Source of the DNA: an uncultured Phycisphaerales bacterium
GTDB lineage: Bacteria; Planctomycetota; B15-G4
DNA: 64,000 nt
Assembly: GCA_964490005.1 (NCBI GenBank)
Contig: CAZBBB010000002.1
Span: 7,299-71,298 of the forward strand
Direction: 5' to 3'
Shown: one piece after another, positions 3,366-61,808 of the stretch
How the letters are laid out: every line of letters starts with the position of its first letter
How positions within the stretch are numbered: the first letter of the stretch is position 1
Program-made: the position numbers and the translations under genes
The notes under the pieces: generated by a model
The model's database searches: none
The model's input: only the letters and a program-made list of their open reading frames with translations
Told to the model about the DNA's origin: nothing

Positions 3366-3503
3366 GGAGGCGATCCGGAGCGGGGACGGCGGGCAGGATG
3401 CGCGCCGCACCGGCGGCGTCTCCGGCGCGGAACGTTAACCGGGAACCCGCGCGGCGCACAGGGTGCGCTTCGCGTGCGCGACGTTCGCGGTGCGCGGCTG
3501 CCA

Positions 3504-3555
3504 CGGGGGCCTTCTCGCCTCCGGCCACGTGACGCCTCCGGCTCAAAGGCCCCCG
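3504..3555 (-). repeat. E2 hairpin element, copy a (core in sense on the minus strand).
   Basis: 10-bp arms cgggggcctt / aaggcccccg (minus-strand reading) flank the 30-nt core GAGCCGGAGGCGTCACGTGGCCGGAGGCGA at 3515..3544. The core is identical to the copies at 59587 and 61744. Confidence 0.7.
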
Positions 3556-3585
3556 GGCGCGCCGCGGGGGACGCGCGCGTGCCGC

Positions 3586-3720
3586 TGCGCCTCGTGCGGG
3601 GGCTCGCGAACGGCAGCCTTTCGGGGGGCGGAGTGAGCGAGCCCCCGCACGAGGCGCCCGCGCCCACCGTGCCGCGCTACGGCTGTTGTCCTTCGCCGCC
3701 CGCCGCGCGCCTGGCCGCGA
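3586..3720. repeat. Direct repeat DR-A (135 bp). An orphan copy of the 3' end of the SGNH/TPR gene plus its downstream hairpin; left boundary of the CRISPR-cas block.
   Basis: Aligns base-for-base with 16472..16606 with 3 mismatches (by eye). On the minus strand it reads ...AARRAAGGEGQQP-stop, against the genuine gene end ...AARRAADGEGQQP-stop at 16563. It ends 2 bp before the csb3 stop codon. Confidence 0.85.
3587..3657. repeat. E1 hairpin element, copy a (inside DR-A).
   Basis: Perfect 21-bp arms gcgcctcgtgcgggggctcgc / gcgagcccccgcacgaggcgc surround the 29-nt centre gaacggcagcctttcggggggcggagtga. Confidence 0.75.
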
Positions 3721-3722
3721 GA

Positions 3723-4619
3723 TCACATCACTGCTGCGGGCTCGAAGGACCCATAGCCACCCTGATCGCTCCGCGCAATGCCACAACTAAACACGACGCC
3801 GATTCCTCGCGCCGTGCGTTCATCGCTACTCATGGCGACGCTGTCCAGGCGCGTGAGTGTGCGTACCATGTCGCGTGATAGTGGTTGCGTCCACAAGGCC
3901 CAGCGGAAGTGGCCAGCCTTCCATTTTCCTATGCAGCCGGTGGTCCTCACTCTCGACCCGACGGGTACCGTGGGGAGGCACGGCAGCCCGCGCAGTGCCA
4001 GCCAATCGGCGCCGGGCACGCCGAGCTTCTTGTCCGTGGATGGGTTCGATGCGCGGAGCGCGTAGGCCCGATCGGCTGTGGCATCCCAGCCCATGACCGG
4101 CAACGGGCTCACGCACAGCCACGGGCCGACGATAGCCTCACGAGTTTGGTCTGGCGTGACGCCGTCGCCAATTCTGCGAGCCATCTCGAGGAACTGCTGC
4201 TGGCCTGCCGTAAAGTGCAGCGCGCTAGGTTTCGTGTTGCCGTTGTTGTCGACGGCGACGTCTGTGCCGAACGCACTCGCCCAGTCGACGCCCCTGCGGT
4301 TTGCGGGGGAGCAGGTGGAGACGAGGGCTTGGAGGTAGGCGCGAAAGACCTCAGGAGGCGGCTTGAGGTCGCGCTTGCCCTCGTACTCGAGCGCGAGCGC
4401 CGGCTCCGAAGCGCAGGCAATCCTGTCTTCGTCAATCCACGCAACGATCTCGTCGATGGACGCATCGATGCCACTCAGGATGGGGCGCCATTGCCCGCTC
4501 TCATGCCAGTGCAGCCGGGCAGGCAGGCCGCGGTCCGAGAGCACTTCAAGGACGCCTAGCGCCGCGAAGTATCCCAGGGGGTTTCCGCCGTCGAGGCCGG
4601 TCAGCGTGATGCCGCTCAC
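3723..4619 (-). CDS. csb3: Type I-G/I-U accessory or large-subunit candidate (Csb3/Cas8u1-like, 298 aa).
   Basis: Last gene of the effector operon. Its GTG start overlaps the cas3 stop (GTGA). The assignment rests on position and size in Csb3-type I-U loci; I recognise no diagnostic motif (N-terminus MSGITLTGLDGGNPLGYFAALGVLEVL). Confidence 0.5.
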   Translation of the reverse strand: MSGITLTGLDGGNPLGYFAALGVLEVLSDRGLPARLHWHESGQWRPILSGIDASIDEIVAWIDEDRIACASEPALALEYEGKRDLKPPPEVFRAYLQALVSTCSPANRRGVDWASAFGTDVAVDNNGNTKPSALHFTAGQQQFLEMARRIGDGVTPDQTREAIVGPWLCVSPLPVMGWDATADRAYALRASNPSTDKKLGVPGADWLALRGLPCLPTVPVGSRVRTTGCIGKWKAGHFRWALWTQPLSRDMVRTLTRLDSVAMSSDERTARGIGVVFSCGIARSDQGGYGSFEPAAVM

Positions 4620-7549
4620 GCGGACCTCCGAGGCAACTGCTGCTCTTCCTCACTTCGGCGATGGTCGCCGAGTCGGAGCACGGTCTCGATCCATGCCAAT
4701 CCCCACCAACCGTAGCGCCGTACAAGCCGCCAGAACCGCTCACCTGCTCCCGAGTCGAGCCGGGCGAGTTCGTGGGCACTCGACGCGGCGACATCGATAC
4801 CATCGAGCGACCACAGCATGTCCACCGGCTGAGGGTCCGCGATCCATGGGGCGAGCGGCCTGCACCTGCCGTGGTGCGATGCGACGAGGTGCTGCACGAG
4901 GTCCCAGTCGTTTGCCTGAGACACGAGCCGATCTCCGGCGCTCTCCATGAGCGCGAGCGACATAAGTTCGTGCCGCGCACCGCGCGGGTACTTTGACCGC
5001 CGCTCGGCACGCTCCCTTGCGCGCCAGTCACTCATTGCTGCCGCGGACTTGGCGATTGGCTCGTCCTGCACGATCGCCTTGAATGCACTTCCGCCATGGA
5101 GCAGACGCTGGAACCGTGGATCGATCTTGCCGACGTCGTGCCATCGTCCGGCCAACCGCACATCGGCAGCGATTGCTGACGGAAGCTGCAAGCTGTCGGC
5201 AAACTGACCAGCAACATCGCGTACACCGGCCAAGTGCTCAACGAGAGGCACCTCGACGCCCGTGAAAGAAGCACGATCATCCTCGGTGCTCACCTCGCTG
5301 CCGTCAAAGCTGACGCGGCTGCGTGTGCTCACGACGAAGTACTCGCCGTCGGCGGGTTCGACACTGCGCGGGAGTCGCTCCACTCGGAGGCCTCGTCCAG
5401 AGGATTCCTTGGCGAGGGCCGTCAGCAGCCCAATGACTGCGGGCTCAAGATCGTTCGATAGCGTGCGTGAGAGCCATTCGCTCACGGCCTCTCGATCGTC
5501 GATGCTCTCTGCGTCGAGCGGGGCAGGCACCGGCGGGGCGGGCGCCGCGGCACCGAGCAGGTCGATGATGACTGCCGGGTGCATGCGCAGCACGGCCCGT
5601 CCGCGTTGCCTGAGCGACGTGACCTCTGCGGCGTCGACGATCGCCTCGGTCGCGCCCGGCGCCCACGTGCCGTTTGCGATGCCGCCATACGTGGACGGAA
5701 CGATCAACGTGTCGCCGGGTCGGATGCCCGACGGCTCCACGACATCAGACGCGTCGCCACGCCAAGCAATTGCCCGGCGCGTTGCTCGAACCTGATCAGC
5801 CTTCCAGTCGTCGAAAGTGACCTCACGAGATCCCTCGACATCAAAGGTCGGGGGCTCCGATCGGCCATCGAGCCAGCGGCGTGCCGCGGCAAACGGGACG
5901 GCCATGGCCTCTCCGCTGGCGGGCGTCACGGCGCCAATGGAGCCGAGCAGAACGTCGCGAGCAGCCACTGCGAGGCCCGGTTGCGTCTCACTGCCCGTCG
6001 CCTGCAGGACCTCGGCGCTGACGTCGGCGCGCCAGATGACCTGGACATCGGCAACGCCCCGGTCTGGTCCGTGCAGCCAGAGCGCGACATCCGGGTCGGG
6101 TGTCGGCTTGGGCGACGTCTGCACCCAAGCGTCGATGTGGCTCGGCAGCAGTACCGGAGCATGGGCCGCGGGTGAAAGCAGGCCAAGCTCGTCGGCATCG
6201 TGCGGTACGGATAGGCCACGGATGCCGAAGTCGATCGTGCCGTCCTTCCTGCCGCCGGTGAGTGCCGCCAGCCAAGCCCATGTCTTGCCAAGTGCATCTC
6301 CGTACACAGGATCGTCGCTCAACGCGTCGCTGCGAGCGACGATGACTCCTCGAGCCTCGTTGGCGTTCCGCCCAAGTCGATCAAGGCGGCCGAACCGCTG
6401 TCGCAGCGCGTCCAGGCTTGCGCACTCGGTGACCAGGCCATCGAAGTCGAGGTCGGCTCCGGCTTCGATGCATTGGGTTGCGACGACAATGATGGGAGGT
6501 GCGCTCGCATCACGCGCTCGGCTCGCGCTGATGCGCGGGATGATTCGCATCTCGAGTGCATTCCTGTCGACAGGTCGCATGCGACCGGTGATGAGGTGTA
6601 CGTCGATGCCTGCGAAGGCCGCCTTAAGCCGCTCGTGAATCTCGCGTGCAGCCGCGACTCGGTTCACGACGACCGCAACAGTGGCGCCGCGGCGCGAGAC
6701 GAGCGGCTTGACGGCGGACTCGATCTCATCAAGGAAAGACCTGGGTGTTGCGAGGACGAGGGTCGTCGGCTTCGAAGCCGAAAGCCGCCCAGCCAGGGCA
6801 GCATGGTTCTCGTCCTCGGGTTCGAGTCGAAATGTACCGGTCCGCGGTGTGCCCGGAGTGGCGGACATCTCCACGACGGTGAACGGACGCGGCAGCGGGT
6901 GGGTCGCCCACTTGCCGTACCGGTGACCGACGGCTTCGAGTGTCTCGCGAAACGGGCGTGAGAGGTGTACTTCGTCGAGCAGATAGAGCACGTCGTTGCC
7001 GAGCAGGCCGGCGTGGATGGGCTTCATCGTGTCGGAGACGCCGTAGCCGCGGAACAGCAGGCGGGAGCCGACTTGGTCGACGGTCGAAAGCACGATCAGT
7101 GGCTGGTCCGGACTCCGTGCCCATGTGTCATTGCGCGCGATTGCGCCCCTCAGCAGTACGGACCTCAGTGGTACGCCGTCGCGGCCGTAGCGCGCCAGCC
7201 GAGCACGAACGCGTGCCAGGAGTGGGGAAGCACCATTCTCAATGGCCTCCGTGATCCTCATAACCCGTTCATGCGCCTGATCGACGATCGTGCGTCGATC
7301 CACGACGTATACGATGCGAAGCGCCGCCGTGCGCGTGACCGCAGTCGCCTGCATCGCCAGTTGGAACACCGCAACATCGAGCAGTGCGGTCTTGCCGGTG
7401 CCGGTCGGCAGGTCGATGACCGATGGCCAGTCGTGGCCTGCGGCAAGGCGAGCGGAGAGCCTCGATTGCCACGGGAACGGGTCGTGCCCATGGACTTCCT
7501 TGAAGAACGCGGCAAACTCACTGGAGACGAGTGCGGCGGGCTCAGTCAT
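4616..7549 (-). CDS. cas3: Cas3 helicase-nuclease with a C-terminal HD domain (the type I-G/I-U arrangement).
   Basis: Walker A DLPTGTGKT, DEAH-box LLDEVHLS, C-terminal HD motifs HDVGKIDPRFQ ... ARHELMSL ... LVASHHGRCRP. I place the start at Met17 (MTEPAAL), which overlaps the csb2 stop by 8 nt; Met14 (7558) or the track start 7597 are alternatives. Confidence 0.9.
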   Translation of the reverse strand: MTEPAALVSSEFAAFFKEVHGHDPFPWQSRLSARLAAGHDWPSVIDLPTGTGKTALLDVAVFQLAMQATAVTRTAALRIVYVVDRRTIVDQAHERVMRITEAIENGASPLLARVRARLARYGRDGVPLRSVLLRGAIARNDTWARSPDQPLIVLSTVDQVGSRLLFRGYGVSDTMKPIHAGLLGNDVLYLLDEVHLSRPFRETLEAVGHRYGKWATHPLPRPFTVVEMSATPGTPRTGTFRLEPEDENHAALAGRLSASKPTTLVLATPRSFLDEIESAVKPLVSRRGATVAVVVNRVAAAREIHERLKAAFAGIDVHLITGRMRPVDRNALEMRIIPRISASRARDASAPPIIVVATQCIEAGADLDFDGLVTECASLDALRQRFGRLDRLGRNANEARGVIVARSDALSDDPVYGDALGKTWAWLAALTGGRKDGTIDFGIRGLSVPHDADELGLLSPAAHAPVLLPSHIDAWVQTSPKPTPDPDVALWLHGPDRGVADVQVIWRADVSAEVLQATGSETQPGLAVAARDVLLGSIGAVTPASGEAMAVPFAAARRWLDGRSEPPTFDVEGSREVTFDDWKADQVRATRRAIAWRGDASDVVEPSGIRPGDTLIVPSTYGGIANGTWAPGATEAIVDAAEVTSLRQRGRAVLRMHPAVIIDLLGAAAPAPPVPAPLDAESIDDREAVSEWLSRTLSNDLEPAVIGLLTALAKESSGRGLRVERLPRSVEPADGEYFVVSTRSRVSFDGSEVSTEDDRASFTGVEVPLVEHLAGVRDVAGQFADSLQLPSAIAADVRLAGRWHDVGKIDPRFQRLLHGGSAFKAIVQDEPIAKSAAAMSDWRARERAERRSKYPRGARHELMSLALMESAGDRLVSQANDWDLVQHLVASHHGRCRPLAPWIADPQPVDMLWSLDGIDVAASSAHELARLDSGAGERFWRLVRRYGWWGLAWIETVLRLGDHRRSEEEQQLPRRSA

Positions 7550-9191
7550 GGAAAGCATGCGGCCGGAGCAGGCCAAGGCCAAAGTAGCGCCCGGCACCTA
7601 GCAGGACCGGGCCGCGCACCTGCTCGCCAAACTCAATCCGGACGTGGCTCAACACGCGGCGGGTCCGCCTTTCCTCCTCAGGGAAACCCGGGTAGGACCG
7701 CGCCTTTGCCGACCCTGCCCATGGTGCTGCGGGCAGTATCTGGACGCTGACGGGTTCCGGGAGGCCGGTGCGCTGGCAGGCACGGCGCACCGTCGCTTCA
7801 GCCTCCACAATTGCAGCGGCAAGCTTTCTCGGGTCGCGGGAGCAGAGATCACCCGGGTTGCGATCGAGTGCGATCGGCGTGACCGTACTCCAGCTCGTCG
7901 AGGGCTGACACCACGTTGGCGGCCGCAGCGTCGTTTGCACAGTTGTCCACTCCACCCGCTCGAGTTCGAGCACTCCCGCAGGACCGAGTGTCAGTGGTAT
8001 CCGTGGCACTTCCTCATCTTCGATGCGGTGCGCACTTTCCCACGCATTCAAGGCGGCGAAGACCGCGCTACGGTCCCGGGGCGAGGCCTCTCTCGGAAGG
8101 ACGAGAGCGACACCGAGGATCGATCCAGATGCGTTGGCATGTCCGACGAAGGGAAGCGGCACGATCGCAAGGTGATCTCGCTCGGATGGGGCCCCTTTGG
8201 CGTCATGACTGGAGAGGACTTCCGGCACGTCGGTCCCTGCGAACGACAACAACGCCTTGCGCACCGCCTTTGCGACGCCGGCGCACGCGACACTGGAAGG
8301 GCTCGCGCCGCCGACCCGTCGGAGGACCAACCACTCCTCTGAGAAACAGGAGCGCGACGCGGTGGCCTCAACCTCGGGCGCACGCCTCGTATACGCCTGG
8401 AAGCGCGCGGGCATCACGCGAGGCTCGGCCTCTCGATGCAGGTCGTAGCTGGCATCGAGGGCCTCGAGTTGCCCCGCTCGGGCTGTCCTGAAGATCTCCT
8501 CGCCGTTCTTCGCCGGTCGCCAGGTCGGCGTGACCAGGTCATCGATGATTCGTGCCGCGACAAGGCTGGACGAGTGACCGAGTCGAACAAGCCGTGCGAG
8601 CAGGCCGTCAAGCGCACTGCGCTGCGATGCTGTCGGTTCAGCGCCGATCCAGACATAGGTCACTCGCGGCTCGGCTGGCGTCACTGATGGGAACGTACGA
8701 GGTTGGCGCACGCGACCCTCGGGAAGGACTGCGAGCCCCATGGCCGGGTTGGCGGCTCGGGTCGGTACCGCTATCTGTCGCTTGATTGCTGCGGCGAGTC
8801 TTGCTTCGGCCTTCATCGCTCGCGACTCAGCGGCCTTGATGGTCTTCGGCGGGGCCTTGGCTCTCGCCTCGTCGAGTTGGATTCTGGCCGCATCGAGATC
8901 ACGCGCCTCTTCATCGACATCCGTCATGCCCGCGTCGTTCACTGGGACAAAGACCGTCACGACCTCCCGACGGCTGGCCTCTGACGCTCGGATCGCCGGA
9001 GGCTCCAGGGCCTCAAGCCACAGCAGGGCCGCGCGCTCATCTGGCGATCGGGCCTCGCTCGCATAGTGCGTCGCTACCAGAGCAGAGTAGAGTCTCGCGG
9101 GATGCGGCGGCCACTCGGCATCGAAGCGCGAGTTGTACTTCGTTGCCACGTAGCGGCCGGTGAGGAACTCAACCTCTATCACCAACGGCAC
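7542..9191 (-). CDS. csb2: Csb2 (Cas5-Cas6 fusion RAMP, GSU0054 family) of type I-G/I-U.
   Basis: The N-terminus VPLVIEVEFLTGRYVATKYNSRFDAEWPPHPARLYSALVA matches the family hallmark (L.G.Y.A...EWPP.P.RL..AL). It has a GTG start 2 nt after the cas7 stop and is 549 aa long. Confidence 0.8.
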   Translation of the reverse strand: MPLVIEVEFLTGRYVATKYNSRFDAEWPPHPARLYSALVATHYASEARSPDERAALLWLEALEPPAIRASEASRREVVTVFVPVNDAGMTDVDEEARDLDAARIQLDEARAKAPPKTIKAAESRAMKAEARLAAAIKRQIAVPTRAANPAMGLAVLPEGRVRQPRTFPSVTPAEPRVTYVWIGAEPTASQRSALDGLLARLVRLGHSSSLVAARIIDDLVTPTWRPAKNGEEIFRTARAGQLEALDASYDLHREAEPRVMPARFQAYTRRAPEVEATASRSCFSEEWLVLRRVGGASPSSVACAGVAKAVRKALLSFAGTDVPEVLSSHDAKGAPSERDHLAIVPLPFVGHANASGSILGVALVLPREASPRDRSAVFAALNAWESAHRIEDEEVPRIPLTLGPAGVLELERVEWTTVQTTLRPPTWCQPSTSWSTVTPIALDRNPGDLCSRDPRKLAAAIVEAEATVRRACQRTGLPEPVSVQILPAAPWAGSAKARSYPGFPEEERRTRRVLSHVRIEFGEQVRGPVLLGAGRYFGLGLLRPHAFHD

Positions 9192-9193
9192 GA

Positions 9194-10465
9194 TCAGCCC
9201 TCACCGTCACCTGCCGAGGTGAGTGCGCGCGACTTGACGATGAGGTGAACCAGTTTCGGTGTTGGCGTCAGCTTGAATGCGTCAGGTTCCCAACCGAAGC
9301 CGAGGTCACTCGCCGCCTTTGACGCCGCTTCCAGGAGAGCCGCAGCGTCATCGAGCGCGTATCGTGAGGGTGCGCCGCCGTCGCGACCGAGGATCTCGAA
9401 AACCAGCGGCTCATCGGCCACGAGCAAGGACCGGGACCGCAGGTCGTACCCCGACTTGCGCTGATACGAGACGCCGGCGAGCGCAAGCGCGGCGAGCGCT
9501 GTACGCGCCGCGGTCTCCGCAGCATCGCGCTTGTCAGCGGCGAGCGGCTCTCCGTCGACCCTTCTTTGGAACCGCAACCGTCGCAGCCCAGCGAGGGAAA
9601 GCACGACCGTATGGACCGCGTGCGACATCGTGACGCCTCCGGCCGAGTCGTCGATGGTTGGTGGGATATTGCCGTGATTGATGCCCGCCGGGCTGCCCTT
9701 GTCCCCGGAACCAGTGCGGCTGAACAACCGCGGCTTGCCTTTGTCTGTCGCGGCCTCGCTCTCGAGAGTCGTCCATTCGCCTGCGTTACCCTTCATCTCG
9801 TAGATCGGGCCGGCCTTCTTCTCAATGGCTGCCGGATCAATGCGGCTGGATGTCTTGACGCCCGCGACGATGTCGTAGCCCACGATCTCGGAGACGAGAT
9901 TGCGTTGGAACTTCGCCCCAAGGCCTCCCTTGGGCCCGGTCGAGTCCCAAACGCCGAAGAGAAGAGCCGTCGGACAGTGCTTGTACATCCCCGTCGCGTG
10001 GTTCGGACGAGCGTCCGTGCAGTCCTTGCCAACAGCTGTCTGCCGGAATGGAGTGCCTTCGTTGTCGATGCTGTCTCGTAGAAGTGCGTCCGCGATGCGG
10101 TGTGGTGCTTGCAATGACGTGATCTGCTCGAGGTCCTCCAGGCCGGCCTGATTGCTGAAGTCCACCGACACGACCGGGAATCTCAGCTCACCGCGCCGCC
10201 ATCCCTCGAGCAATGCCTCCTCGATGCGATTCGCTTGCGACGCAACGGAGTCGAGCAGCACTGTCTGAATGCGCTGCCCGTTGACGACACGCTCTTCCAT
10301 GGCGTAGTTCGTCAGGCTCTTTCCTTCCTTGGTGTACGTGGGGGGGAAAACCTTGTCGCCCGGACCTCCTGCCGGAGTGAGGGTGGTGACCGCTCGAATG
10401 GCCACGGCCCCACCTGCCACAGCCTCCTGCAGGACGCCGAGCGACAGCTTGGGAAGTGCAGTCAT
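9194..10465 (-). CDS. cas7: Cas7 (Csb1, GSU0053 family) backbone subunit of type I-G/I-U.
   Basis: Motifs GDKVFPPTY and VLLDSVASQANRIEEAL resemble the Csb1 signature (..F.PTGF.. / DSvqSqANR.E). I place the start at Met53 of the track ORF (MTALPKLSL), which is preceded by a GGAGA RBS. Confidence 0.8.
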   Translation of the reverse strand: MTALPKLSLGVLQEAVAGGAVAIRAVTTLTPAGGPGDKVFPPTYTKEGKSLTNYAMEERVVNGQRIQTVLLDSVASQANRIEEALLEGWRRGELRFPVVSVDFSNQAGLEDLEQITSLQAPHRIADALLRDSIDNEGTPFRQTAVGKDCTDARPNHATGMYKHCPTALLFGVWDSTGPKGGLGAKFQRNLVSEIVGYDIVAGVKTSSRIDPAAIEKKAGPIYEMKGNAGEWTTLESEAATDKGKPRLFSRTGSGDKGSPAGINHGNIPPTIDDSAGGVTMSHAVHTVVLSLAGLRRLRFQRRVDGEPLAADKRDAAETAARTALAALALAGVSYQRKSGYDLRSRSLLVADEPLVFEILGRDGGAPSRYALDDAAALLEAASKAASDLGFGWEPDAFKLTPTPKLVHLIVKSRALTSAGDGEG

Positions 10466-10694
10466 GGGGTCTCCAAGAATGGGTTGGCGGCGGTAGCTGA
10501 TCGAGTCAGTGCCATGGGTGCACCGGGTTCCCTGAGTGAATCGTGCAGTGGAGCTTCGGGATGGCGGTGGACACGGAGTGTCCATCTGAGGCCGCGCTTC
10601 GAGTCTCCCTGCGGAGTTCACGGCAGCCGTGATGTTCCCTCAACTCAGCCCCCTGCATGAACCCGATACATCGGCAAGGGACGGAGCATGCAGC
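10466..10694. promoter_or_regulatory. Divergent intergenic region between the cas7 operon and cas4/cas1, with candidate operator palindromes.
   Basis: Perfect palindrome TGGACAC-GGA-GTGTCCA at 10568..10584. Second palindrome CACGGC-A-GCCGTG at 10619..10631. I could not place a confident -35/-10 pair. Confidence 0.4.
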
Positions 10695-12395
10695 ATGCAC
10701 GACGACCTTGGCAAGAGGGGCGCAGGTGCGCGCCATGTAGGGTCCGGCAATGCGGAGTTGCTCCCCGCCCGCATGCTCAATGAGTTCACCTACTGTCCAC
10801 GCCTCTTCCACCTCGAGTGGGTCCAGCGCGAGTGGGCGGAGAGCGCCGACACGCTGGCCGGCGAGCACGATCATCGGCGGGTGGACACGGAGTCCGGGGA
10901 GCTCCCGCCGCCCGAGGAGCTGGCCGGCCAGGAGGGGACGGCCCGCTCGGTGCAGCTCGAGGCGCCGGTCGCCGGGCTCGTCGCCAAGCTCGATCTCGTC
11001 GAACTGGCCGGCGGGGCGGTGGTGCCGGTCGACTACAAGCACGGCAAGGCGCCGAAAGTCGAGGGCGAACTCTGGCCGGCCGATCGCATCCAGCTCGGGG
11101 CGCAGGCGCTCGCGTTGCGCGAGAACGGCTACCGCTGCGAGCAGGCCGTCATCTACTACGTCGGCTCGCGGCGCCGGGTGTCCGTGGTCGTCGACGATGC
11201 GTTGCTCGAAGATGTCCGGGCCACGATCGCCGCGGCGCGTGCCGCGGCCGCCGACCCGCGGCCACCCGCGCCGCTCGTCGACAGTCCCAAGTGCCCGCGC
11301 TGCTCGCTCGTGGGCATCTGTCTTCCGGACGAGATCAATGCGCTCACGGGCGACGGAGGAGAGCGTGAAGTGCGGCGCCTGTACGCCTCGCGCGACGAGG
11401 CCCTCCCGCTCTACGTGCAGAGCCACGGTTCACGCGTCGGCAAGTCCGGTGATCGGCTCGAAATCACCGACCGCGAGGGCGCGACCCGCTCGGTGCGCTT
11501 GCTCGACGTGAGCCAACTGGCGGTCTTCGGCAGCGTGCAGGTGACGTCCGCGGCCTTCGGTGAGCTGTTCCGCCGCAACGTGCCCATCACGCACTTCAGC
11601 TTCGGCGGCTGGTTTCTCGGCCTCTCGCATGCCGTGGGGCCCCAGCAGGGCCACGTGCGCCGTCATCAGTTCCGCGCCGCCGACGACGAGCGCTTGCGCC
11701 TCTCGCTCGCGCGCGGCTTCGTGCACCGCAAGGTCCTCAACTGTCGCACGCTGCTGCGCCGCAACGCACCGGAAGTGTCGGGCGAAGTCCTCGACGAACT
11801 CGAGCGGCATGCCGCTGCGGCCCCGAGAGCAGAGTCACTCGCCAGCCTTCTCGGGATCGAAGGCGCCGCGGCCCGATGCTACTTCGGCGCCTTTGCGGCG
11901 ATGCTCAAGCCGGCCGACACGACCGAGTTCGACTTCTCGCAACGCAATCGCCGGCCGCCACGCGACCCGGTCAACGCGCTTCTCTCGCTCGCCTACTCGG
12001 TGCTCTCCCGCGACTGGATGGTCGCACTGCTGGCCGTCGGCCTCGACCCCGCGCTCGGCTTCTTCCACGAGCCGCGTGCGGGCCGACCGGCGCTCGCGCT
12101 CGACCTGATGGAGGAGTTTCGGCCGCTCATCGGCGACTCGGTCGTGATCCAGGTGATCAACAACGGCGAGGTGCGACCGAAGGACTTCTTGCGTCGCGGC
12201 GAGGCGGTCGCGCTCACCGATGGAGGCCGCAAGAGCTTCTTTCTCGCGTACGAACGGCGCATGGCGCAGGAAGTGCGCCATCCGATCTTTGGCTACCAGG
12301 TCAGCTACCGTCGCCTGCTCGAGGTGCAGGCGCGCCTGCTCGCTCGACACCTCGCCGGCGAGCTGCCGAGTTACGACGGCTTTCGCACGCGATGA
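10695..12395 (+). CDS. cas1: Cas4-Cas1 fusion (adaptation nuclease/integrase).
   Basis: The N-terminal Cas4 part has LNEFTYCPRLFHLEW and the C-terminal Cys cluster SPKCPRCSLVGICLPDE. The Cas1 body follows (LYVQSHGSRVGKSGDRLEI ... FHEPRAGRPALALDLMEEFRP). The start could be 10629 or 10632 (track) or Met23 at 10695, which has a GGACGGAG RBS-like sequence upstream. Confidence 0.9.
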   Translation: MHDDLGKRGAGARHVGSGNAELLPARMLNEFTYCPRLFHLEWVQREWAESADTLAGEHDHRRVDTESGELPPPEELAGQEGTARSVQLEAPVAGLVAKLDLVELAGGAVVPVDYKHGKAPKVEGELWPADRIQLGAQALALRENGYRCEQAVIYYVGSRRRVSVVVDDALLEDVRATIAAARAAAADPRPPAPLVDSPKCPRCSLVGICLPDEINALTGDGGEREVRRLYASRDEALPLYVQSHGSRVGKSGDRLEITDREGATRSVRLLDVSQLAVFGSVQVTSAAFGELFRRNVPITHFSFGGWFLGLSHAVGPQQGHVRRHQFRAADDERLRLSLARGFVHRKVLNCRTLLRRNAPEVSGEVLDELERHAAAAPRAESLASLLGIEGAAARCYFGAFAAMLKPADTTEFDFSQRNRRPPRDPVNALLSLAYSVLSRDWMVALLAVGLDPALGFFHEPRAGRPALALDLMEEFRPLIGDSVVIQVINNGEVRPKDFLRRGEAVALTDGGRKSFFLAYERRMAQEVRHPIFGYQVSYRRLLEVQARLLARHLAGELPSYDGFRTR

Positions 12396-12688
12396 GCGAG
12401 CGCAACCTGTATCTCGTCGCCTACGACGTGCGCCATCCCAAGCGCCTGAAGAAGATGCACAAGACGCTGTGCGGCTACGGCGACAGCCTGCAGTACTCGG
12501 TTTTCCAGTGCGCGTTGACCGCCGCCGAACGGCAGCGGATGATCACGGACGTGACGGAGATCATTCAGCACAACCACGATCGTGTTCTGGTCGTCGACAT
12601 GGGGCCGCAGGACGGCCGAGGTCGCAAGGCCATCGAGGTGCTCGGTGTGCAGGAGGTGCCGCCGAAGCGGGGGCCGCTGGTGCTGTGA
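12392..12688 (+). CDS. cas2: Cas2.
   Basis: 98 aa, MSERNLYLVAYDVRHPKRLKKMHKTLCGYGDSLQYSVFQC... (classic Cas2 YD.. / QYSVF motifs). Its ATG overlaps the cas1 stop (ATGA). Confidence 0.9.
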   Translation: MSERNLYLVAYDVRHPKRLKKMHKTLCGYGDSLQYSVFQCALTAAERQRMITDVTEIIQHNHDRVLVVDMGPQDGRGRKAIEVLGVQEVPPKRGPLVL

Positions 12689-12912
12689 GCGCTCCGTTTT
12701 CCACCATCTGGTCGATGTCTGCCGCCTGGCGTAGGCTGCGAGCGCTCCGGTGCCGCGCCGGAACCCGGGCAGCGCTCGCAACCGCACGTTCCTTGACAAC
12801 AAGTACTTATGGACGCCGAGCTGCTACCGCGCACTCCCTTGCCAACCACCAGCCCGACCTCTCGCAATCGAAGCTCTACGCGCTCTTCGTTTCCCGACTT
12901 ACGATGCCCGCC
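12689..12912 (+). promoter_or_regulatory. CRISPR leader (candidate).
   Basis: Lies between cas2 and the first repeat. It contains a 10-bp-stem hairpin (12737..12746 / 12771..12780), a possible cas2 terminator, and the only AT-richer patch nearby (ccTTGACAacaagtacttatgg, 12793..). The degenerate repeat is at the far end of the array, which supports this end as the leader. Confidence 0.6.
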
Positions 12913-15900
12913 CTTTCCGCAGTCGCAAGACTGCGGCCCCGTTGAAGCGACATGCGGATGCGCGCGCTCGAGGCGAGCGTCGAGCCTTTCCGCAGTCGCA
13001 AGACTGCGGCCCCGTTGAAGCGATGCCGCCACGGCGGGCGTGGACACGGTCGGGGAGCTTTCCGCAGTCGCAAGACTGCGGCCCCGTTGAAGCCGATGCC
13101 GGTTTTGCGGATCGTAGAGACGGCGAGCTTTCCGCAGTCGCAAGACTGCGGCCCCGTTGAAGCGGCATGGGCTTGCCTCCGGGGATCAACGCGGTCCAGA
13201 GCTTTCCGCAGTCGCAAGACTGTGGCCCCGTTGAAGCGCGCGCAGATCGCTCACGTCCACGCCGAGCGCTTCCCTTTCCGCAGTCGCAAGACTGCGGCCC
13301 CGTTGAAGCCCGGCGACGCGGCCACGCAGATCGCGCGCACGATCCTTTCCGCAGTCGCAAGACTGCGGCCCCGTTGAAGCACGACCAACGAGCGCGACGA
13401 GTTCGTCTGCGGATACTTTCCGCAGTCGCAAGACTGCGGCCCCGTTGAAGCAGGCGCAGCACCACCTTGTCGACGGCGGCCGGCGAGCTTTCCGCAGTCG
13501 CAAGACTGCGGCCCCGTTGAAGCACGATGCGCCGCGATGCGTGCGCGGTAGGTGGCGGCGACTTTCCGCAGTCGCAAGACTGCGGCCCCGTTGAAGCCTC
13601 GACATGACGCAGCCGGGCGGCCCGGGGCGCTGGATCTTTCCGCAGTCGCAAGACTGCGGCCCCGTTGAAGCCACGTCGCGGATGTCGCGTGTCGTCAGGG
13701 CCTCGGCCCTTTCCGCAGTCGCAAGACTGCGGCCCCGTTGAAGCCTTGTTCATGCGCGGCCACGGTAGCGATTCGCGCGGGGCCTTTCCGCAGTCGCAAG
13801 ACTGCGGCCCCGTTGAAGCTACGAGGGCCTGAGCGACATGCCGCTGCGCCAGAGCGCTTTCCGCAGTCGCAAGACTGCGGCCCCGTTGAAGCTCCAGCAT
13901 CGCGAACACCAGGCCAAGGCGATCCGTCTTTCCGCAGTCGCAAGACTGCGGCCCCGTTGAAGCCTCCTAAGCCTAGTATCGCTGATATCGGGCTTCCGCT
14001 TTCCGCAGTCGCAAGACTGCGGCCCCGTTGAAGCCAGCGTGGCCGACGCGCGGCCGACCTGCTGGACGACTTTCCGCAGTCGCAAGACTGCGGCCCCGTT
14101 GAAGCGTGCCACACGGCTGGGGCCTGGACTCCACGCACGACCTTTCCGCAGTCGCAAGACTGCGGCCCCGTTGAAGCACGGCCAGGACGGTGACCTGCAC
14201 GGCCTCGGCGATCCTTTCCGCAGTCGCAAGACTGCGGCCCCGTTGAAGCCTGCGCAGGCACCGCTCGGCGCTCGGATGGTCCGGCTTTCCGCAGTCGCAA
14301 GACTGCGGCCCCGTTGAAGCAATACGGGAAATCTCTTCTCACCCCGCCGCGTTTCCTTTCCGCAGTCGCAAGACTGCGGCCCCGTTGAAGCGTGTTCGTC
14401 GACGGCGTGACGGTCGCGGCGGCGGCGCTTTCCGCAGTCGCAAGACTGCGGCCCCGTTGAAGCGCGTTCCTGCGCAGCGTGAACGAGAACTCCGGGCTGG
14501 CTTTCCGCAGTCGCAAGACTGCGGCCCCGTTGAAGCGACAGCACGAGGCGGCGGTGCTCGTTCGCGATCCGCTGCTTTCCGCAGTCGCAAGACTGCGGCC
14601 CCGTTGAAGCATCAAGCAAGCGCAGGGGCTCGGCTTCGCGGGCCGCGCTTTCCGCAGTCGCAAGACTGCGGCCCCGTTGAAGCACAACCACGGAAGGACA
14701 GGACATCGGCGATTCGGCACTTTCCGCAGTCGCAAGACTGCGGCCCCGTTGAAGCGCGAGAATCGCGTCGTGATTCTTGCCCGCCCCGCTGACTTTCCGC
14801 AGTCGCAAGACTGCGGCCCCGTTGAAGCCACGAGCACCGCGCGATTGATGCGCTGCGACGTGCGCTTTCCGCAGTCGCAAGACTGCGGCCCCGTTGAAGC
14901 AGGGCGTCGCCATCGCCATCGCCGAGCCCGCGATCCTTTCCGCAGTCGCAAGACTGCGGCCCCGTTGAAGCACGAGGACCGTGTACCCCGGCAGCGTCAT
15001 CGCGAGGCCTTTCCGCAATCGCAAGACTGCGGCCCCGTTGAAGCCAGCTCGCCGCCCTCGCCGCCGCCGCCGCCCTCGCCTTTCCGCAGTCGCAAGACTG
15101 CGGCCCCGTTGAAGCTCCGAGACCGGGATCACGACGACGTGGAACAGTTGCCTTTCCGCAGTCGCAAGACTGCGGCCCCGTTGAAGCAATGCGCCGATCA
15201 TGTCCCTAGTCTCCGGCGACCTACTTTCCGCAGTCGCAAGACTGCGGCCCCGTTGAAGCATCGCTCTCGGGGTGGCTCAGCTCGTCGCTGTGGCCCTTTC
15301 CGCAGTCGCAAGACTGCGGCCCCGTTGAAGCCACGACGAAGAAACCGATACGCGCGTGGAAATCGTCCTTTCCGCAGTCGCAAGACTGCGGCCCCGTTGA
15401 AGCGCGAGGTCGGGGCCTTCATCCAGATCGCCGAACCATCCTTTCCGCAGTCGCAAGACTGCGGCCCCGTTGAAGCGTGCCGCCGTCCGACTGGGTCGCC
15501 AACACGGCCGGCAACTTTCCGCAGTCGCAAGACTGCGGCCCCGTTGAAGCGGATCGGACGCGGGCCACGTCGAGCGCGCCCCCGGCGCTTTCCGCAGTCG
15601 CAAGACTGCGGCCCCGTTGAAGCCGCCGCCTCCCTCAGCGCCGCCGCCGCCTCCTCGCGCACTTTCCGCAGTCGCAAGACTGCGGCCCCGTTGAAGCGAG
15701 CCGGTGGAAGTGCTCAAGGCGCTCGCCTGCTACCTTTCCGCAGTCGCAAGACTGCGGCCCCGTTGAAGCCCCCTAGTGCCCCGTGATTTGAAGCGCGCGC
15801 GCGATCCTTTCCGCAGTCGCAAGACTGCGGCCCCGTTGAAGCACACACGCGCGAGCCGAGGCCGCAGCGACGGCGCTGGCTTTCCGCAGTCGCAAGACTG

Positions 15901-16421
15901 CGGCCCCGTTGAAGCACGACCGGCGTGAACGTGATTCCCTGGGCGGCAATCCTTTCCGCAGTCGCAAGACTGCGGCCCCGTTGAAGCGCGTTGCCGTTGC
16001 GGCCGAGCCACTCGGCAGCGGTCTCTTTCCGCAGTCGCAAGACTGCGGCCCCGTTGAAGCGTCGACCTCGCGCGCACGCGCCCCGACCTCGCGTGGACTT
16101 TCCGCAGTCGCAAGACTGCGGCCCCGTTGAAGCCTCTCGGCGTGCCCGAACTGCCACGGCTGAATGATCTCTTTCCGCAGTCGCAAGACTGCGGCCCCGT
16201 TGAAGCGCCTCGGCGTGGTACAGGTAGAACTTCGGCGTAGACTTTCCGCAGTCGCAAGACTGCGGCCCCGTTGAAGCGACGTGACCGTCAACTCGGATGC
16301 CGTCGAGCGGATCCTTTCCACAGTCGCAAGACTGCGGCCCCGTTGAAGCAAGAGGGCCGCCGCGCAGCTTGGCGTTGGGCGCTACCTTTCCGCAGTCGCA
16401 AGACTGCGGCCCCGTTGATGA
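12913..16421 (+). CRISPR. CRISPR array: 49 repeats of 36 bp (CTTTCCGCAGTCGCAAGACTGCGGCCCCGTTGAAGC) and 48 spacers of 34-39 bp.
   Basis: Repeats counted one by one. The repeat has an 8-bp stem CCGCAGTC/GACTGCGG with a GCAA loop and a 12-nt tail ending GTTGAAGC (I-C/I-U-like). Variant repeats: R5 (13202, C22T), R30 (15009, G10A) and R48 (16314, G7A). The terminal R49 (16386) is degenerate at its 3' end (GTTGATGA). Confidence 0.97.
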
Positions 16422-16471
16422 GGTCGCGTGCCAATGCCAATTGGCTCGTTCCGCACTTCACACGCGTTCCA

Positions 16472-16606
16472 TGCGCCTCGTGCGGGGGCTCGCGAACGGC
16501 AGCCTTTCGGGGGGCGGAGTGAGCGAGCCCCCGCACGAGGCGCCCGCGCCGACCGTGCCGCGCTACGGCTGCTGTCCTTCGCCGTCCGCCGCGCGCCTGG
16601 CCGCGA
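16472..16606. repeat. Direct repeat DR-B (135 bp): the genuine 3' end of the SGNH/TPR gene plus its downstream hairpin; right boundary of the CRISPR-cas block.
   Basis: 132/135 identical to 3586..3720. It covers the last 14 codons and stop codon (16563..16565) of the minus-strand gene and 91 bp downstream. Confidence 0.85.
16473..16543. repeat. E1 hairpin element, copy b (inside DR-B); likely terminator of the SGNH/TPR gene.
   Basis: Same sequence as 3587..3657. It ends 19 nt before the minus-strand stop codon, i.e. it lies just downstream of the gene. Confidence 0.75.
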
Positions 16607-38384: not shown

Positions 38385-38395
38385 GCGCGGCGCGG

Positions 38396-38468
38396 GGCGG
38401 TGTGCTGCGGGGTCTCCTCGCTCCGCCCCCCGAAAGGCTGCCGCTCGGAGACCCCGCAGCACACCGCC
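38396..38468 (+). repeat. E1 hairpin element, copy c (opposite orientation on the plus strand to copies a and b).
   Basis: Perfect 22-bp arms ggcggtgtgctgcggggtctcc / ggagaccccgcagcacaccgcc surround tcgctccgccccccgaaaggctgccgctc. That centre is the reverse complement of the E1a/b centre except for 2 positions. The element starts 12 nt after the stop of the membrane-protein gene. Confidence 0.75.
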
Positions 38469-38554
38469 TGGATGCGTCGGGGGCGGGCGCGGCGCACCAA
38501 CCCGCTCGCTCAGCTCCGTGCTACGCTCCTCGGCGCTTCGGCGAGGTTGCTGCT

Positions 38555-59544: not shown

Positions 59545-59575
59545 GGCGGGGCGAGGGGGTGCTGGGCGGCGCGGC

Positions 59576-59627
59576 CGAGGGCCTCTGAGCCGGAGGCGTC
59601 ACGTGGCCGGAGGCGAAGAGGCCCTCG
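59576..59627 (+). repeat. E2 hairpin element, copy b (between convergent genes).
   Basis: 11-bp arms cgagggcctct / agaggccctcg flank the core GAGCCGGAGGCGTCACGTGGCCGGAGGCGA (59587..59616). Confidence 0.75.
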
Positions 59628-59657
59628 AGCCAGCCGCCTCACGCTGACCGCCACCGT

Positions 59658-61694: not shown

Positions 61695-61732
61695 GATCGA
61701 CCGCTTCGCGGGGATCGCCCGGGCGCCGCGCC

Positions 61733-61784
61733 CGGGGGTCTTCGAGCCGGAGGCGTCACGTGGCCGGAGGCGAGAAGACCCCCG
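61733..61784 (+). repeat. E2 hairpin element, copy c (between convergent genes).
   Basis: 11-bp arms cgggggtcttc / gaagacccccg flank the identical 30-nt core (61744..61773). Confidence 0.75.
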
Positions 61785-61808
61785 AGGCAGGCGCCCTCGA
61801 GGTCGACG

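What the first reader, a model, noticed from the sequence alone, without database searches (positions are those of the whole stretch)
3586..16606. 135-bp direct repeats bracket the whole CRISPR-cas locus and duplicate the 3' end of the neighbouring gene; island-like, but no recombinase is visible
Seen directly:
- 3586..3720 and 16472..16606 are the same sequence in the same orientation, with 3 mismatches in 135 bp.
- The right copy is the authentic end of the minus-strand SGNH/TPR gene: its last 14 codons, stop codon and 91 bp downstream, including a 21-bp-stem hairpin.
- The left copy is a redundant fragment of that gene end (AARRAAGGEGQQP-stop against AARRAADGEGQQP-stop). It sits 2 bp after the csb3 stop.
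- All six cas genes, the leader and the 49-repeat array (12,751 bp) lie exactly between the two copies.

Inference:
- This is the geometry of an element integrated into a gene's 3' end with attL/attR duplication. It implies that the complete type I-G system arrived as one cassette.
- I recognise no integrase, transposase or Cas1-independent recombinase inside. Mobilisation would therefore need a recombinase acting in trans, or homologous recombination.
- Recombination between the repeats would delete the whole immunity locus precisely and leave an intact host gene. That could act as a population-level on/off switch for CRISPR immunity.
- The cas operon also looks less GC-rich than its flanks by eye.
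Basis: partly seen in the sequence, partly recalled or inferred. Interest (0 to 1): 0.75.

Follow-up and report, generated by a model that had tools for sequence, protein, structure and literature searches.

The report
CRISPR-Cas island between duplicated gene ends
A complete, foreign-looking CRISPR-Cas immune system sits between two near-identical copies of the end of a neighbouring gene, which marks it as a recently acquired block that can be lost again precisely; this is an ordinary kind of genomic island with an unusually clean anatomy, and how it got in is not settled.

Summary
Positions 3586-3720 and 16472-16606 are direct repeats, 132 of 135 bases identical. Each carries the last 13 codons, the stop codon and a 21-bp-stem hairpin of the minus-strand SGNH/TPR gene. 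Exactly between them lie six type I-G cas genes, the leader and a 49-repeat array.

The block is foreign in composition: GC3 is 0.72-0.85 against 0.96-0.99 in the flanking genes. No protein at 90% identity or more to any of the six Cas proteins exists outside the source contig. All five flanking genes tested have such relatives in other samples. Two contigs from one related sample meet inside the hairpin, which fits an empty site but does not prove one.

I found no integrase, no transposase and no terminal inverted repeats. My preferred explanation is entry by one reciprocal crossover within the repeat, probably by host homologous recombination. A recombinase acting in trans, a duplication made on the spot, or an assembly phasing error are not excluded. 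Precise loss through the repeats is plausible; a reversible switch is not.

The hairpin belongs to a dispersed family with a conserved loop and covarying stems, which may be the more novel item.

The parts
3586..3720 (-). Left copy of the repeat (U_L). It is a redundant fragment of the SGNH/TPR gene end. Tail codons are at 3680-3720, the stop codon at 3677-3679 and the hairpin stem at 3587-3607 / 3637-3657. It lies 2 bases after the csb3 stop and could act as terminator of the cas3-csb3 operon (inferred).
16472..16606 (-). Right copy of the repeat (U_R). It is the functional end of the SGNH/TPR gene. It contains 13 codons plus 2 bases, the stop at 16563-16565 and the hairpin stem at 16473-16493 / 16523-16543.
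16463..16471 (-). Nine bases (TGGAACGCG on the minus strand) just outside U_R. They match the sequence that follows the hairpin in the related strain (L021). This is a native flank, or the degenerate outer end of the duplication.
3721..16471 (.). The bracketed 12,751-base block: a complete type I-G CRISPR-Cas cassette. GC is 66%, against 73% in the rest of the window. It has no terminal inverted repeats and no recombinase.
3723..4619 (-). csb3, the type I-G 'Cas3-extension' protein (298 aa)
   Evidence: NF049934, 340.8 bits, cut-off 65; P0025, 100% identical
4616..7549 (-). cas3g helicase/nuclease (977 aa as annotated at NCBI)
   Evidence: TIGR02621, 765.7 bits, cut-off 400
7542..9191 (-). csb2, the Cas5/Cas6-like protein of type I-G (549 aa)
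   Evidence: TIGR02165, 289.9 bits
9194..10465 (-). csb1 / Cas7g (423 aa)
   Evidence: TIGR02570, 58.8 bits, cut-off 38
10695..12395 (+). cas4g-cas1g fusion (566 aa), transcribed divergently from csb1
   Evidence: NF049935, 770.7 bits, cut-off 560
12392..12688 (+). cas2 (98 aa)
   Evidence: TIGR01573, 40.6 bits, cut-off 24.5
12689..12912 (+). Leader (inferred from its position between cas2 and the first repeat)
12913..16421 (+). CRISPR array. It has 49 repeats of 36 bases, 45 of them identical, and the last repeat is degenerate at its 3' end. It carries 48 unique spacers of 34-39 bases.
16563..18551 (-). SGNH (GDSL) esterase / TPR gene (662 aa). Its 3' end is the duplicated sequence. It is conserved in Planctomycetota-like relatives.
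1470..3365 (-). Left neighbour 'gene X', a secreted protein with a SpaA/SdrD-like fold (631 aa). Its promoter and first ~16 codons match the paralogue X' of the related strain.
3491..3571 (+). B-type hairpin element in the spacer between U_L and gene X. It lies within about 98 bases that the related strain L021 lacks.

Best explanation
A complete type I-G CRISPR-Cas cassette of foreign origin was acquired as one block by this strain lineage. It sits at the 3' end of the SGNH/TPR gene.

**Proposed mechanism (inferred).**
- The cassette entered this chromosome as a circular, non-replicating molecule.
- That circle already carried one copy of the gene-tail-plus-hairpin segment, about 135-144 bases.
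- It integrated by one reciprocal crossover within that segment. This is Campbell-type integration, most probably by the host's homologous recombination, because the cassette encodes no recombinase.
- The crossover leaves one copy of the segment on each side, and the gene stays intact.

**Consequences (inferred).**
- The left copy now supplies a hairpin directly after the last cas gene.
- The two copies are a substrate for precise RecA-type deletion of the whole immunity locus.

**Shown:** the repeat, the cassette content, its foreign composition, its absence from the public relatives, and the absence of a recombinase.
**Inferred:** the circle, the single crossover and the enzyme.
**Unexplained:** how the first cassette-plus-segment junctions arose.
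For: **Geometry and content**
- The cassette lies exactly between direct repeats that are 132/135 identical.
- The six cas genes and the array fill the interval. Two bases are spare at the csb3 end and 50 at the array end.

**Foreign origin**
- Cas genes have GC3 of 0.72-0.85, against 0.96-0.99 for flanking genes. The tetranucleotide distance to the rest of the window is 0.037-0.057, against 0.009-0.030 for other 4-kb segments.
- The next best csb3 homologue is only 71% identical.

**Strain-specific presence**
- The 90%-identity clusters of all six Cas proteins contain only the source contig.
- TPR, gene X, ABC2 and GT2a have additional cluster members from Logan assemblies of sequencing runs. 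GT2b occurs there as the identical sequence.
- That is 0 of 6 against 5 of 5. My own hand calculation of Fisher's exact test gives p of about 0.002.

**Related strain (run SRR28842990)**
- Contig L012 runs from the TPR gene into the near arm of the hairpin.
- Contig L021 starts in the hairpin loop and runs into the spacer and genes X' and X. The two contigs meet in one hairpin.
- L021 continues about 40 bases into the unit without a break.

**The segment is native**
- The related strain has the same tail and hairpin.
- Orthologues end in similar variable tails directly after the conserved PLLxEI motif.

**Marker pattern**
- The related strain shares the three internal variants with the left copy.
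- It shares the outer flank (TGGAACGCG) with the right copy.
- One crossover in columns 1-79 between two diverged alleles would produce this split.

**No self-encoded machinery**
- No integrase or transposase hit in any major open reading frame of the window.
- No terminal inverted repeats at the cassette ends.
Against: - No contig crosses the hairpin in any relative, so no empty-site junction has been seen directly.
- No circular junction has been seen.
- Only one genome carries the cassette.
- The marker argument rests on four sites. The related strain also differs from both copies at 4 further tail positions and 1 loop position. New mutations after an on-the-spot duplication could give the same pattern.
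- The model does not explain how the first circle acquired the gene tail, or why the cassette ends only 2 bases after the csb3 stop.
- The source is probably a metagenome-assembled contig. The 79 identical bases of the repeat could have been threaded wrongly.
- Public contigs of the related strains are short (3-5 kb), so absence of cas genes there is not proof.
Confidence: 0.45

Rival explanations
1. Site-specific recombination by an integrase acting in trans. The cassette would be the integrase-less remnant or passenger of an integrative element, like a cis-mobilizable element (CIME). The two repeats would be attL and attR, and the right copy would be the element-supplied replacement of the gene end.
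For: - The geometry is the classical one: insertion in the 3' end of a gene with that end restored.
- All three internal variants of the gene-attached copy differ from the related strain, as expected if that copy came with the element.
- CIMEs flanked by att sites and lacking an integrase are documented (PMC5704250, PMC7563491).
Against: - No integrase in the cassette or in any major open reading frame of the 64-kb window.
- No core-type inverted repeats were recognised.
- The related strain's post-hairpin flank lies next to the gene-proximal copy, not the distal copy. A simple att model fits this only if the identity block extends further.
- The nearest type I-G relatives have no such flanking repeats.
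Confidence: 0.15
2. The duplication was made on the spot when a linear foreign fragment was inserted. Possible routes are fill-in of a break with about 135-149-base staggered ends (for example nicking at the hairpin base), replicative template switching, or homology at one end plus illegitimate joining at the other.
For: - One boundary of the duplication coincides with the base of a strong hairpin.
- The outer 14 bases are much more diverged than the 135-base core, as at a repair junction.
- No recombinase and no terminal inverted repeats.
- Homology-facilitated illegitimate recombination (PMC3240628) and merodiploid formation during transformation (PMC3784515) are documented.
Against: - Target duplications of this length are unusual.
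- All three differences lie on the copy that is under selection and none on the free fragment.
- A random fragment ending 2 bases after a stop codon would be a coincidence.
Confidence: 0.2
3. Assembly or phasing artefact. In the real sample the chromosome has an empty site, and the cassette with one unit copy is a separate molecule or belongs to another strain. The assembler threaded the shared 79 bases the wrong way.
For: - The source looks like a metagenome contig: 102,613 bases, with no names attached to its proteins.
- Swapping the two paths across columns 1-79 would give one allele that matches the related strain at all four markers and one that matches at none.
- Public assemblies of relatives break at this hairpin.
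Against: - The copies differ at three positions, so this is not a trivial overlap duplication.
- A 12.9-kb circle without replication genes should not be abundant enough to be assembled.
- Both junction sequences must exist in reads in any case.
Confidence: 0.1
4. The cassette is old at this site. The left copy is a later local copy of the terminator region, and related strains lost the cassette.
For: - The hairpins of this family are themselves polymorphic between strains.
- The divergence between the two copies (2.2%) is not smaller than the divergence between strains.
Against: - The GC3 of the cas genes is far from the host value, which argues against long residence.
- Deletion through the repeats would keep the left-copy flank. 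The related strain has the right-copy flank.
- No mechanism is known that would copy exactly tail plus hairpin to that spot.
Confidence: 0.1

Closest known systems
Cis-mobilizable elements (CIMEs) and other integrase-less genomic islands flanked by att direct repeats at the 3' end of a gene (for example next to ICESt1/ICESt3 at fda in Streptococcus thermophilus; reviews PMC5704250, PMC7563491)
   Same: - A cargo block sits between direct repeats that duplicate the 3' end of a host gene.
- The gene stays intact.
- No recombinase lies inside.
- Mobility would need help in trans.
   Different: - CIME repeats are short att sites of a known partner element. Here the repeat is 135 bases and includes a hairpin.
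- No partner element or integrase is known here.
- The cargo is only a CRISPR-Cas system.
Campbell-type integration of a non-replicating circle by homologous recombination (as with suicide plasmids; my own knowledge)
   Same: One crossover in a shared segment leaves that segment as a direct repeat on both sides of the insert. A second crossover reverses it precisely.
   Different: - A natural source of the circle and its route of transfer are unknown.
- 135 bases is a short but workable homology.
Phage, ICE and island attP sites that carry the 3' end of the target gene (tRNA or protein-coding; my own knowledge)
   Same: The identity block runs from inside the gene through its end and beyond, so the gene is rebuilt after insertion.
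   Different: No integrase, no excisionase, and no phage or conjugation genes.
Casposons (Cas1-driven self-synthesizing transposons; PMC4779613)
   Same: A Cas1-family integrase is encoded in the inserted block, and the insert is flanked by a duplicated target.
   Different: - Casposons have terminal inverted repeats and a family B polymerase. From my own knowledge, their target duplications are about 14-15 bp.
- Here there are no inverted repeats, no polymerase, and a 135-bp repeat.
- Cas1 here is the ordinary type I-G Cas4-Cas1 fusion.
Exchange of CRISPR-Cas loci between strains by homologous recombination in conserved flanks, and phage-assisted transfer through spacer-protospacer recombination (my own knowledge; not checked in the library)
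   Same: A whole CRISPR-Cas locus is present or absent between close strains without a transposase or integrase of its own.
   Different: Double crossover in the flanks leaves no duplication. Here a duplicated segment brackets the locus.

Membership tests
Type I-G (formerly I-U) CRISPR-Cas system | Cas3g with C-terminal HD domain | tested here: met
   TIGR02621, 765.7 bits (cut-off 400); HD domain at residues 785-912
Type I-G (formerly I-U) CRISPR-Cas system | Csb1 (Cas7g), Csb2 (Cas5/6-like) and the Cas3-adjacent type I-G protein | tested here: met
   TIGR02570, 58.8 bits (cut-off 38); TIGR02165, 289.9 bits (cut-off 45); NF049934, 340.8 bits (cut-off 65)
Type I-G (formerly I-U) CRISPR-Cas system | Fused Cas4-Cas1, Cas2 and an adjacent repeat-spacer array | tested here: met
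   NF049935, 770.7 bits (cut-off 560); TIGR01573, 40.6 bits (cut-off 24.5); 49 repeats of 36 bases
Self-mobile integrative element (prophage, ICE, IME, integrase-bearing island) | A tyrosine or serine recombinase encoded inside, next to one att site | tested here: not met
   Every open reading frame between the repeats is a cas gene. No recombinase hit in the other major ORFs of the window.
Self-mobile integrative element (prophage, ICE, IME, integrase-bearing island) | Direct repeats (attL/attR) at the ends that duplicate the target | tested here: met
   135-bp repeats, 98% identical, exactly at the ends
Cis-mobilizable element (CIME) | Flanked by att sites and lacking recombination and transfer genes | tested here: met
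   That the repeats function as att sites is assumed, not shown.
Cis-mobilizable element (CIME) | A related integrative element with an integrase that uses the same att site | not testable with these tools
   Only 64 kb of the genome is available. The source contig could not be fetched.
Transposon or casposon | Terminal inverted repeats and a short target duplication (up to about 15 bp) | tested here: not met
   No inverted repeat between the cassette ends above shuffled background. The duplication is 135 bp.
CRISPR-associated transposon (Tn7-like) | tnsA/B/C and tniQ genes next to a nuclease-deficient Cas module | tested here: not met
   No such genes. Cas3 is complete, with helicase and HD domains.
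Integron gene cassette | An attC site with conserved outer core sites and a nearby intI/attI | tested here: not met
   No integrase in the window. By reading the hairpin alignment I recognised no attC-type core sites; the loop is the conserved part and the stems vary. No attC model was run.

The most novel reading that the evidence does not exclude
The conserved-loop hairpin that forms half of the repeat may not be a passive terminator. It could be the recognition or breakage site of a recombination system acting in trans. That system would capture cargo next to gene ends and move it.
- At least five independent copies of two loop types lie in 64 kb.
- One copy is present in this strain and absent in a close relative.
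- Copies also occur in an unrelated 51%-GC metagenome contig.

The whole CRISPR-Cas locus would then be one such cargo, inserted between two copies of a palindromic unit.
Probability: 0.07. Interest if true: 0.8.

Novelty: new member of a known kind. Interest (0 to 1): 0.4.

Why it matters
CRISPR-Cas systems are patchily distributed among close strains, and how whole loci move without their own mobility genes is poorly documented. This locus is a clean example. It is a minimal cassette with nothing but immunity genes, clear foreign composition and a 135-bp duplicated host segment on each side.

If the single-crossover route were confirmed, it would show two things:
- A captured piece of a host gene is enough to shuttle a complete immune system between strains.
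- The same piece allows the system to be shed precisely when it is costly.

The claim is testable with reads from three named datasets. On its own, in one metagenome-derived contig, it remains a well-described island rather than a new mechanism.

Tried and rejected
**Searches that led nowhere**
- Species-representative genomes, searched with the TPR protein: only distant relatives at 43% identity or less over short stretches; no empty site.
- Exact look-ups of the window's csb3: not on record, so the source contig could not be fetched.
- More distant orthologous loci (L013, L015):
  - Synteny is conserved upstream of the TPR gene.
  - Different genes lie downstream (ROK, sulfatase, Der).
  - The comparison is too distant to serve as an empty site.
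- Homologue of gene X on a 67-kb JGI contig: no DNA available, and no TPR gene nearby.
- Nearest type I-G relatives (70% csb3 identity; loci L022, L023): no flanking direct repeats of 40 bp or more.
- Viral contigs searched for the hairpin loops and the CRISPR repeat: nothing.
- Plasmid collection searched with csb3: best hit 31% identity.
- Rfam: no family at the curated thresholds for the whole window, and only chance-level hits (E of 0.98 and above) around the right copy of the repeat.
- Terminal inverted repeats at the cassette ends: none.
- Spacers matching elsewhere in the window: none full length.
- Literature: no paper found that describes a CRISPR-Cas locus bracketed by a duplicated gene end. 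The loop sequence occurs in no paper.

**Ideas considered and set aside**
- Cas1-Cas2 inserting the whole locus like a giant spacer between two copies of a palindromic 'repeat'. The stagger would be about 135 bases and the insert 12.7 kb, far outside known behaviour.
- The repeat as a simple overlap artefact. This is rejected because the copies differ at 3 positions.
- Contig L014 as an empty site. Its homology to the window stops inside gene X because of a paralogue, so it says nothing about the cassette.
Full report
**1. The observation**

- The two stretches, 3586-3720 and 16472-16606, align without gaps. They differ at three positions: columns 80, 101 and 114.
- The stem sequence of the hairpin occurs only in these two places in the window. 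About 0.5 matches at up to 3 mismatches are expected by chance.
- The right copy is the true end of a minus-strand gene of 662 codons. The gene has a GDSL/SGNH esterase part and TPR repeats.
  - The copy contains 13 codons plus two bases of a 14th, and the TAG stop at 16563-16565.
  - It also contains 91 further bases with a perfect 21-bp stem and a 29-base spacer.
- The left copy encodes the same tail with one amino-acid change. It ends two bases before the stop codon of csb3.

**2. What lies between the copies**

Model scores are above the curated cut-offs for all six cas genes:

| Gene | Coordinates | Strand |
|---|---|---|
| csb3 ('Cas3-extension') | 3723-4619 | - |
| cas3g | 4616-7549 | - |
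| csb2 | 7542-9191 | - |
| csb1 / cas7g | 9194-10465 | - |
| cas4g-cas1g fusion | 10695-12395 | + |
| cas2 | 12392-12688 | + |

- The gene starts were confirmed by exact look-up of the annotated products.
- A leader and 49 repeats of 36 bases follow, with 48 unique spacers. The last repeat is degenerate, so the array is read away from cas2.
- There is no room for another gene.
- The cassette ends show no terminal inverted repeats.

**3. Is the block foreign?**

- GC is 66.3% inside, against 73.1% for the rest of the window.
- Third-codon-position GC is 0.72-0.77 for four cas genes and 0.85 for cas4-cas1. It is 0.96-0.99 for the five flanking genes tested.
- The tetranucleotide distance to the rest of the window is 0.037-0.057 for the three 4-kb segments inside the block. 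It is 0.009-0.030 for the other segments.
- The closest csb3 homologue in the 5.8 billion non-redundant protein sequences searched is 71% identical. The closest named ones come from Myxococcota-like bins.
- The host genes resemble Planctomycetota bins.
- The composition argues for acquisition recent enough that the codon usage has not yet adapted to the host.

**4. Related strains**

- The 90%-identity clusters of all six Cas proteins contain only the protein of the source contig, an NCBI record of 102,613 bases.
- The clusters of the TPR gene, gene X, ABC2 and one glycosyltransferase each contain additional members from Logan assemblies of sequencing runs. A second glycosyltransferase occurs there as the identical sequence.
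- That is 0 of 6 against 5 of 5. My own hand calculation of Fisher's exact test gives p of about 0.002.
- Three such contigs were read:
  - L012 (run SRR28842990) is 98.9% identical to window 20083-16534. It stops ten bases into the near arm of the hairpin, where an Illumina adapter follows.
  - L021 (same run) begins in the hairpin loop. It runs through the far arm, 120 bases of spacer, a paralogue X', gene X (96.5% identical) and the next gene.
  - L014 (run SRR22250828) covers X', X and the next gene but does not reach the hairpin.
- L012 and L021 therefore meet inside one hairpin. That fits an empty site, TPR-hairpin-spacer-X'-X.
- Neither contig crosses the hairpin, so this is not proof.
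- L021 runs about 40 bases into the unit without breaking. That is a little more than a 31-mer graph would allow if a second copy with another flank existed (inference).

**5. The fine structure of the two copies**

- At all three variable positions the related strain has the base of the left copy.
- Directly outside the hairpin the pattern is reversed. The related strain reads TGGAACGCG, which is the flank of the right copy (16463-16471). The left copy is followed by GCGGCACGCG.
- Two readings are possible:
  - **One crossover.** A single reciprocal crossover in columns 1-79, between an incoming unit resembling the related strain and a different resident unit, would split the markers in exactly this way.
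  - **Later mutation.** The duplication arose on the spot, extended about 14 bases further, and mutated afterwards. That needs three changes in the selected copy, none in the free fragment, and a burst of changes at the outer edge.
- The related strain also differs from both copies at four other tail positions and one loop position.

**6. Mechanism**

- No integrase, transposase or other recombinase was found, either in the cassette or in any major open reading frame of the window.
- A 135-bp identity block is long for a site-specific core. It is sufficient for RecA-type recombination (my own knowledge).
- I therefore rank the explanations as follows:
  1. Single-crossover integration of a circle that carries one unit, by homologous recombination.
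  2. A duplication made on the spot during illegitimate or template-switch insertion, perhaps helped by the hairpin.
  3. An integrase acting in trans, as for cis-mobilizable elements (PMC5704250, PMC7563491).
  4. Assembly mis-phasing, or an old cassette with a later local copy of the unit (about equally likely).
- None of these explains why the cassette ends only two bases after the csb3 stop. None explains how the very first junctions formed.
- Homology at one end combined with illegitimate joining at the other is documented (PMC3240628). So is merodiploid formation during transformation (PMC3784515). Both could have produced the first junctions.
- Recombination between the two copies would delete the locus and leave the gene intact. 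The excised circle has no means to persist, so this is a route of loss, not a reversible switch.

**7. The hairpin is a member of a family**

- **A third hairpin.**
  - It lies at 38396-38468, a few bases after the stop of another gene.
  - It has the same geometry and an identical 23-base loop core, but a different perfect stem.
- **Covariation.** Among three sequences, 13 of 27 predicted pairs keep pairing through changes on both sides. One of these pairs lies inside the 'loop'.
- **A second loop type ('B').**
  - A covariance model built from these three sequences finds three more hairpins in the window.
  - Their loop is identical among themselves, and their stems again differ.
  - They lie at 61717-61799 and 59560-59643 (both minus) and at 3491-3571 (plus).
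- **Position.**
  - Four of the five independent copies start 7-15 bases after a stop codon, in sense orientation. That suggests terminators or RNA 3'-end elements.
  - The fifth, at 3491-3571, lies within about 98 bases that the related strain lacks. At least this copy is therefore polymorphic between strains.
- **Other genomes.** Two A-type copies occur in a 51%-GC metagenome contig.
- **Known families.** No Rfam family reaches its curated threshold anywhere in the window, and only chance-level hits lie around the right copy of the repeat.
- **Bearing on the finding.**
  - The 135-bp unit, with its own stem and the gene tail, exists only at this locus.

**8. Comparison and verdict**

- The system is a standard type I-G CRISPR-Cas locus. 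All of its defining parts were tested and met.
- The island resembles a cis-mobilizable element or a Campbell-type insert.
- It fails the tests for a self-mobile integrative element, a transposon or casposon, a CRISPR-associated transposon and an integron cassette.
- I file it as a new member of a known kind: a strain-specific island bracketed by a duplicated gene end.
- Interest is moderate, because the anatomy is clean and the hypothesis can be tested with existing read sets.
- The evidence comes from one contig, and the mechanism is inferred.

Noticed in passing
window 16467-16548 (-), 3581-3662 (-), 38391-38473 (+); L019 8591-8655 (+) and 8802-8884 (-): A-type hairpin family. The stems are long (12-22 bp; perfect in the window copies) and differ between copies. 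The 23-29-base loop is almost identical (CTCCGCCCCCCGAAAGGCTGCCG), even in a 51%-GC metagenome contig. 13 of 27 pairs covary among three sequences. No Rfam match.
   Followed up: partly
window 61717-61799 (-), 59560-59643 (-), 3491-3571 (+): B-type hairpins, found with the covariance model. They share one identical loop (CUCGCCUCCGGCCACGUGACGCCUCCGGCUC) and have different, slightly imperfect stems. Two of them start 10-15 bases after a stop codon in sense orientation.
   Followed up: partly
window 3468-3585 against L021 41-60: The window has about 98 extra bases between the A-type hairpin and the shared spacer. These bases contain the B-type hairpin. The related strain has only 20 bases here. 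This is a presence/absence polymorphism of a hairpin element, possibly with a short imperfect duplicated target (GGAACGCGCGCG).
   Followed up: partly
window 3316-3467 against L021 60-2425 and L014 1-442: Gene X of the window has the promoter and first ~16 codons of the paralogue X', and the body of X. Related strains carry X' and X in tandem. This looks like a 2.2-kb deletion by recombination between tandem paralogues, separate from the cassette.
   Followed up: partly
window 16551-16585 against L012: Seven of the 39 differences between L012 and the window fall within 35 bases of the gene tail. The 2-kb gene body differs by only 0.5%. This is a small hypervariable or converted patch just inside the repeat.
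   Followed up: no
L012 3551-3572: This public Logan contig ends in Illumina adapter sequence (AGATCGGAAGAGCGTCGTGTAG), joined to the hairpin arm. It is an assembly artefact at a strong hairpin.
   Followed up: yes
L013 12020-17864 and L015 11901-17824 against the window: In relatives with 50-55% TPR identity, the gene is followed by ROK, sulfatase, Der GTPase and radical-SAM genes. None of these is in the window. The ten upstream genes are syntenic at 55-78% identity. The 3' end of the TPR gene is therefore a synteny breakpoint.
   Followed up: partly
L022 7614-10897 against L023 1569-8329: In the nearest type I-G relative, one sample carries a truncated cas3 (796 aa instead of 982 aa) joined to unrelated genes, with csb1 and csb2 missing. 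This is a natural partial deletion of a type I-G locus.
   Followed up: no
L019 8690-8820: A tandem repeat of about 59 bases lies between the two convergent A-type hairpins. Several short GGAGTCCCAACGG-like motifs lie upstream of it.
   Followed up: no
window 40001-44000: GC is lower (69%) and tetranucleotide distance higher (0.030) inside a very large open reading frame (37859-44794) with FG-GAP and Ig-like domains. This is the only other compositional outlier in the window.
   Followed up: no
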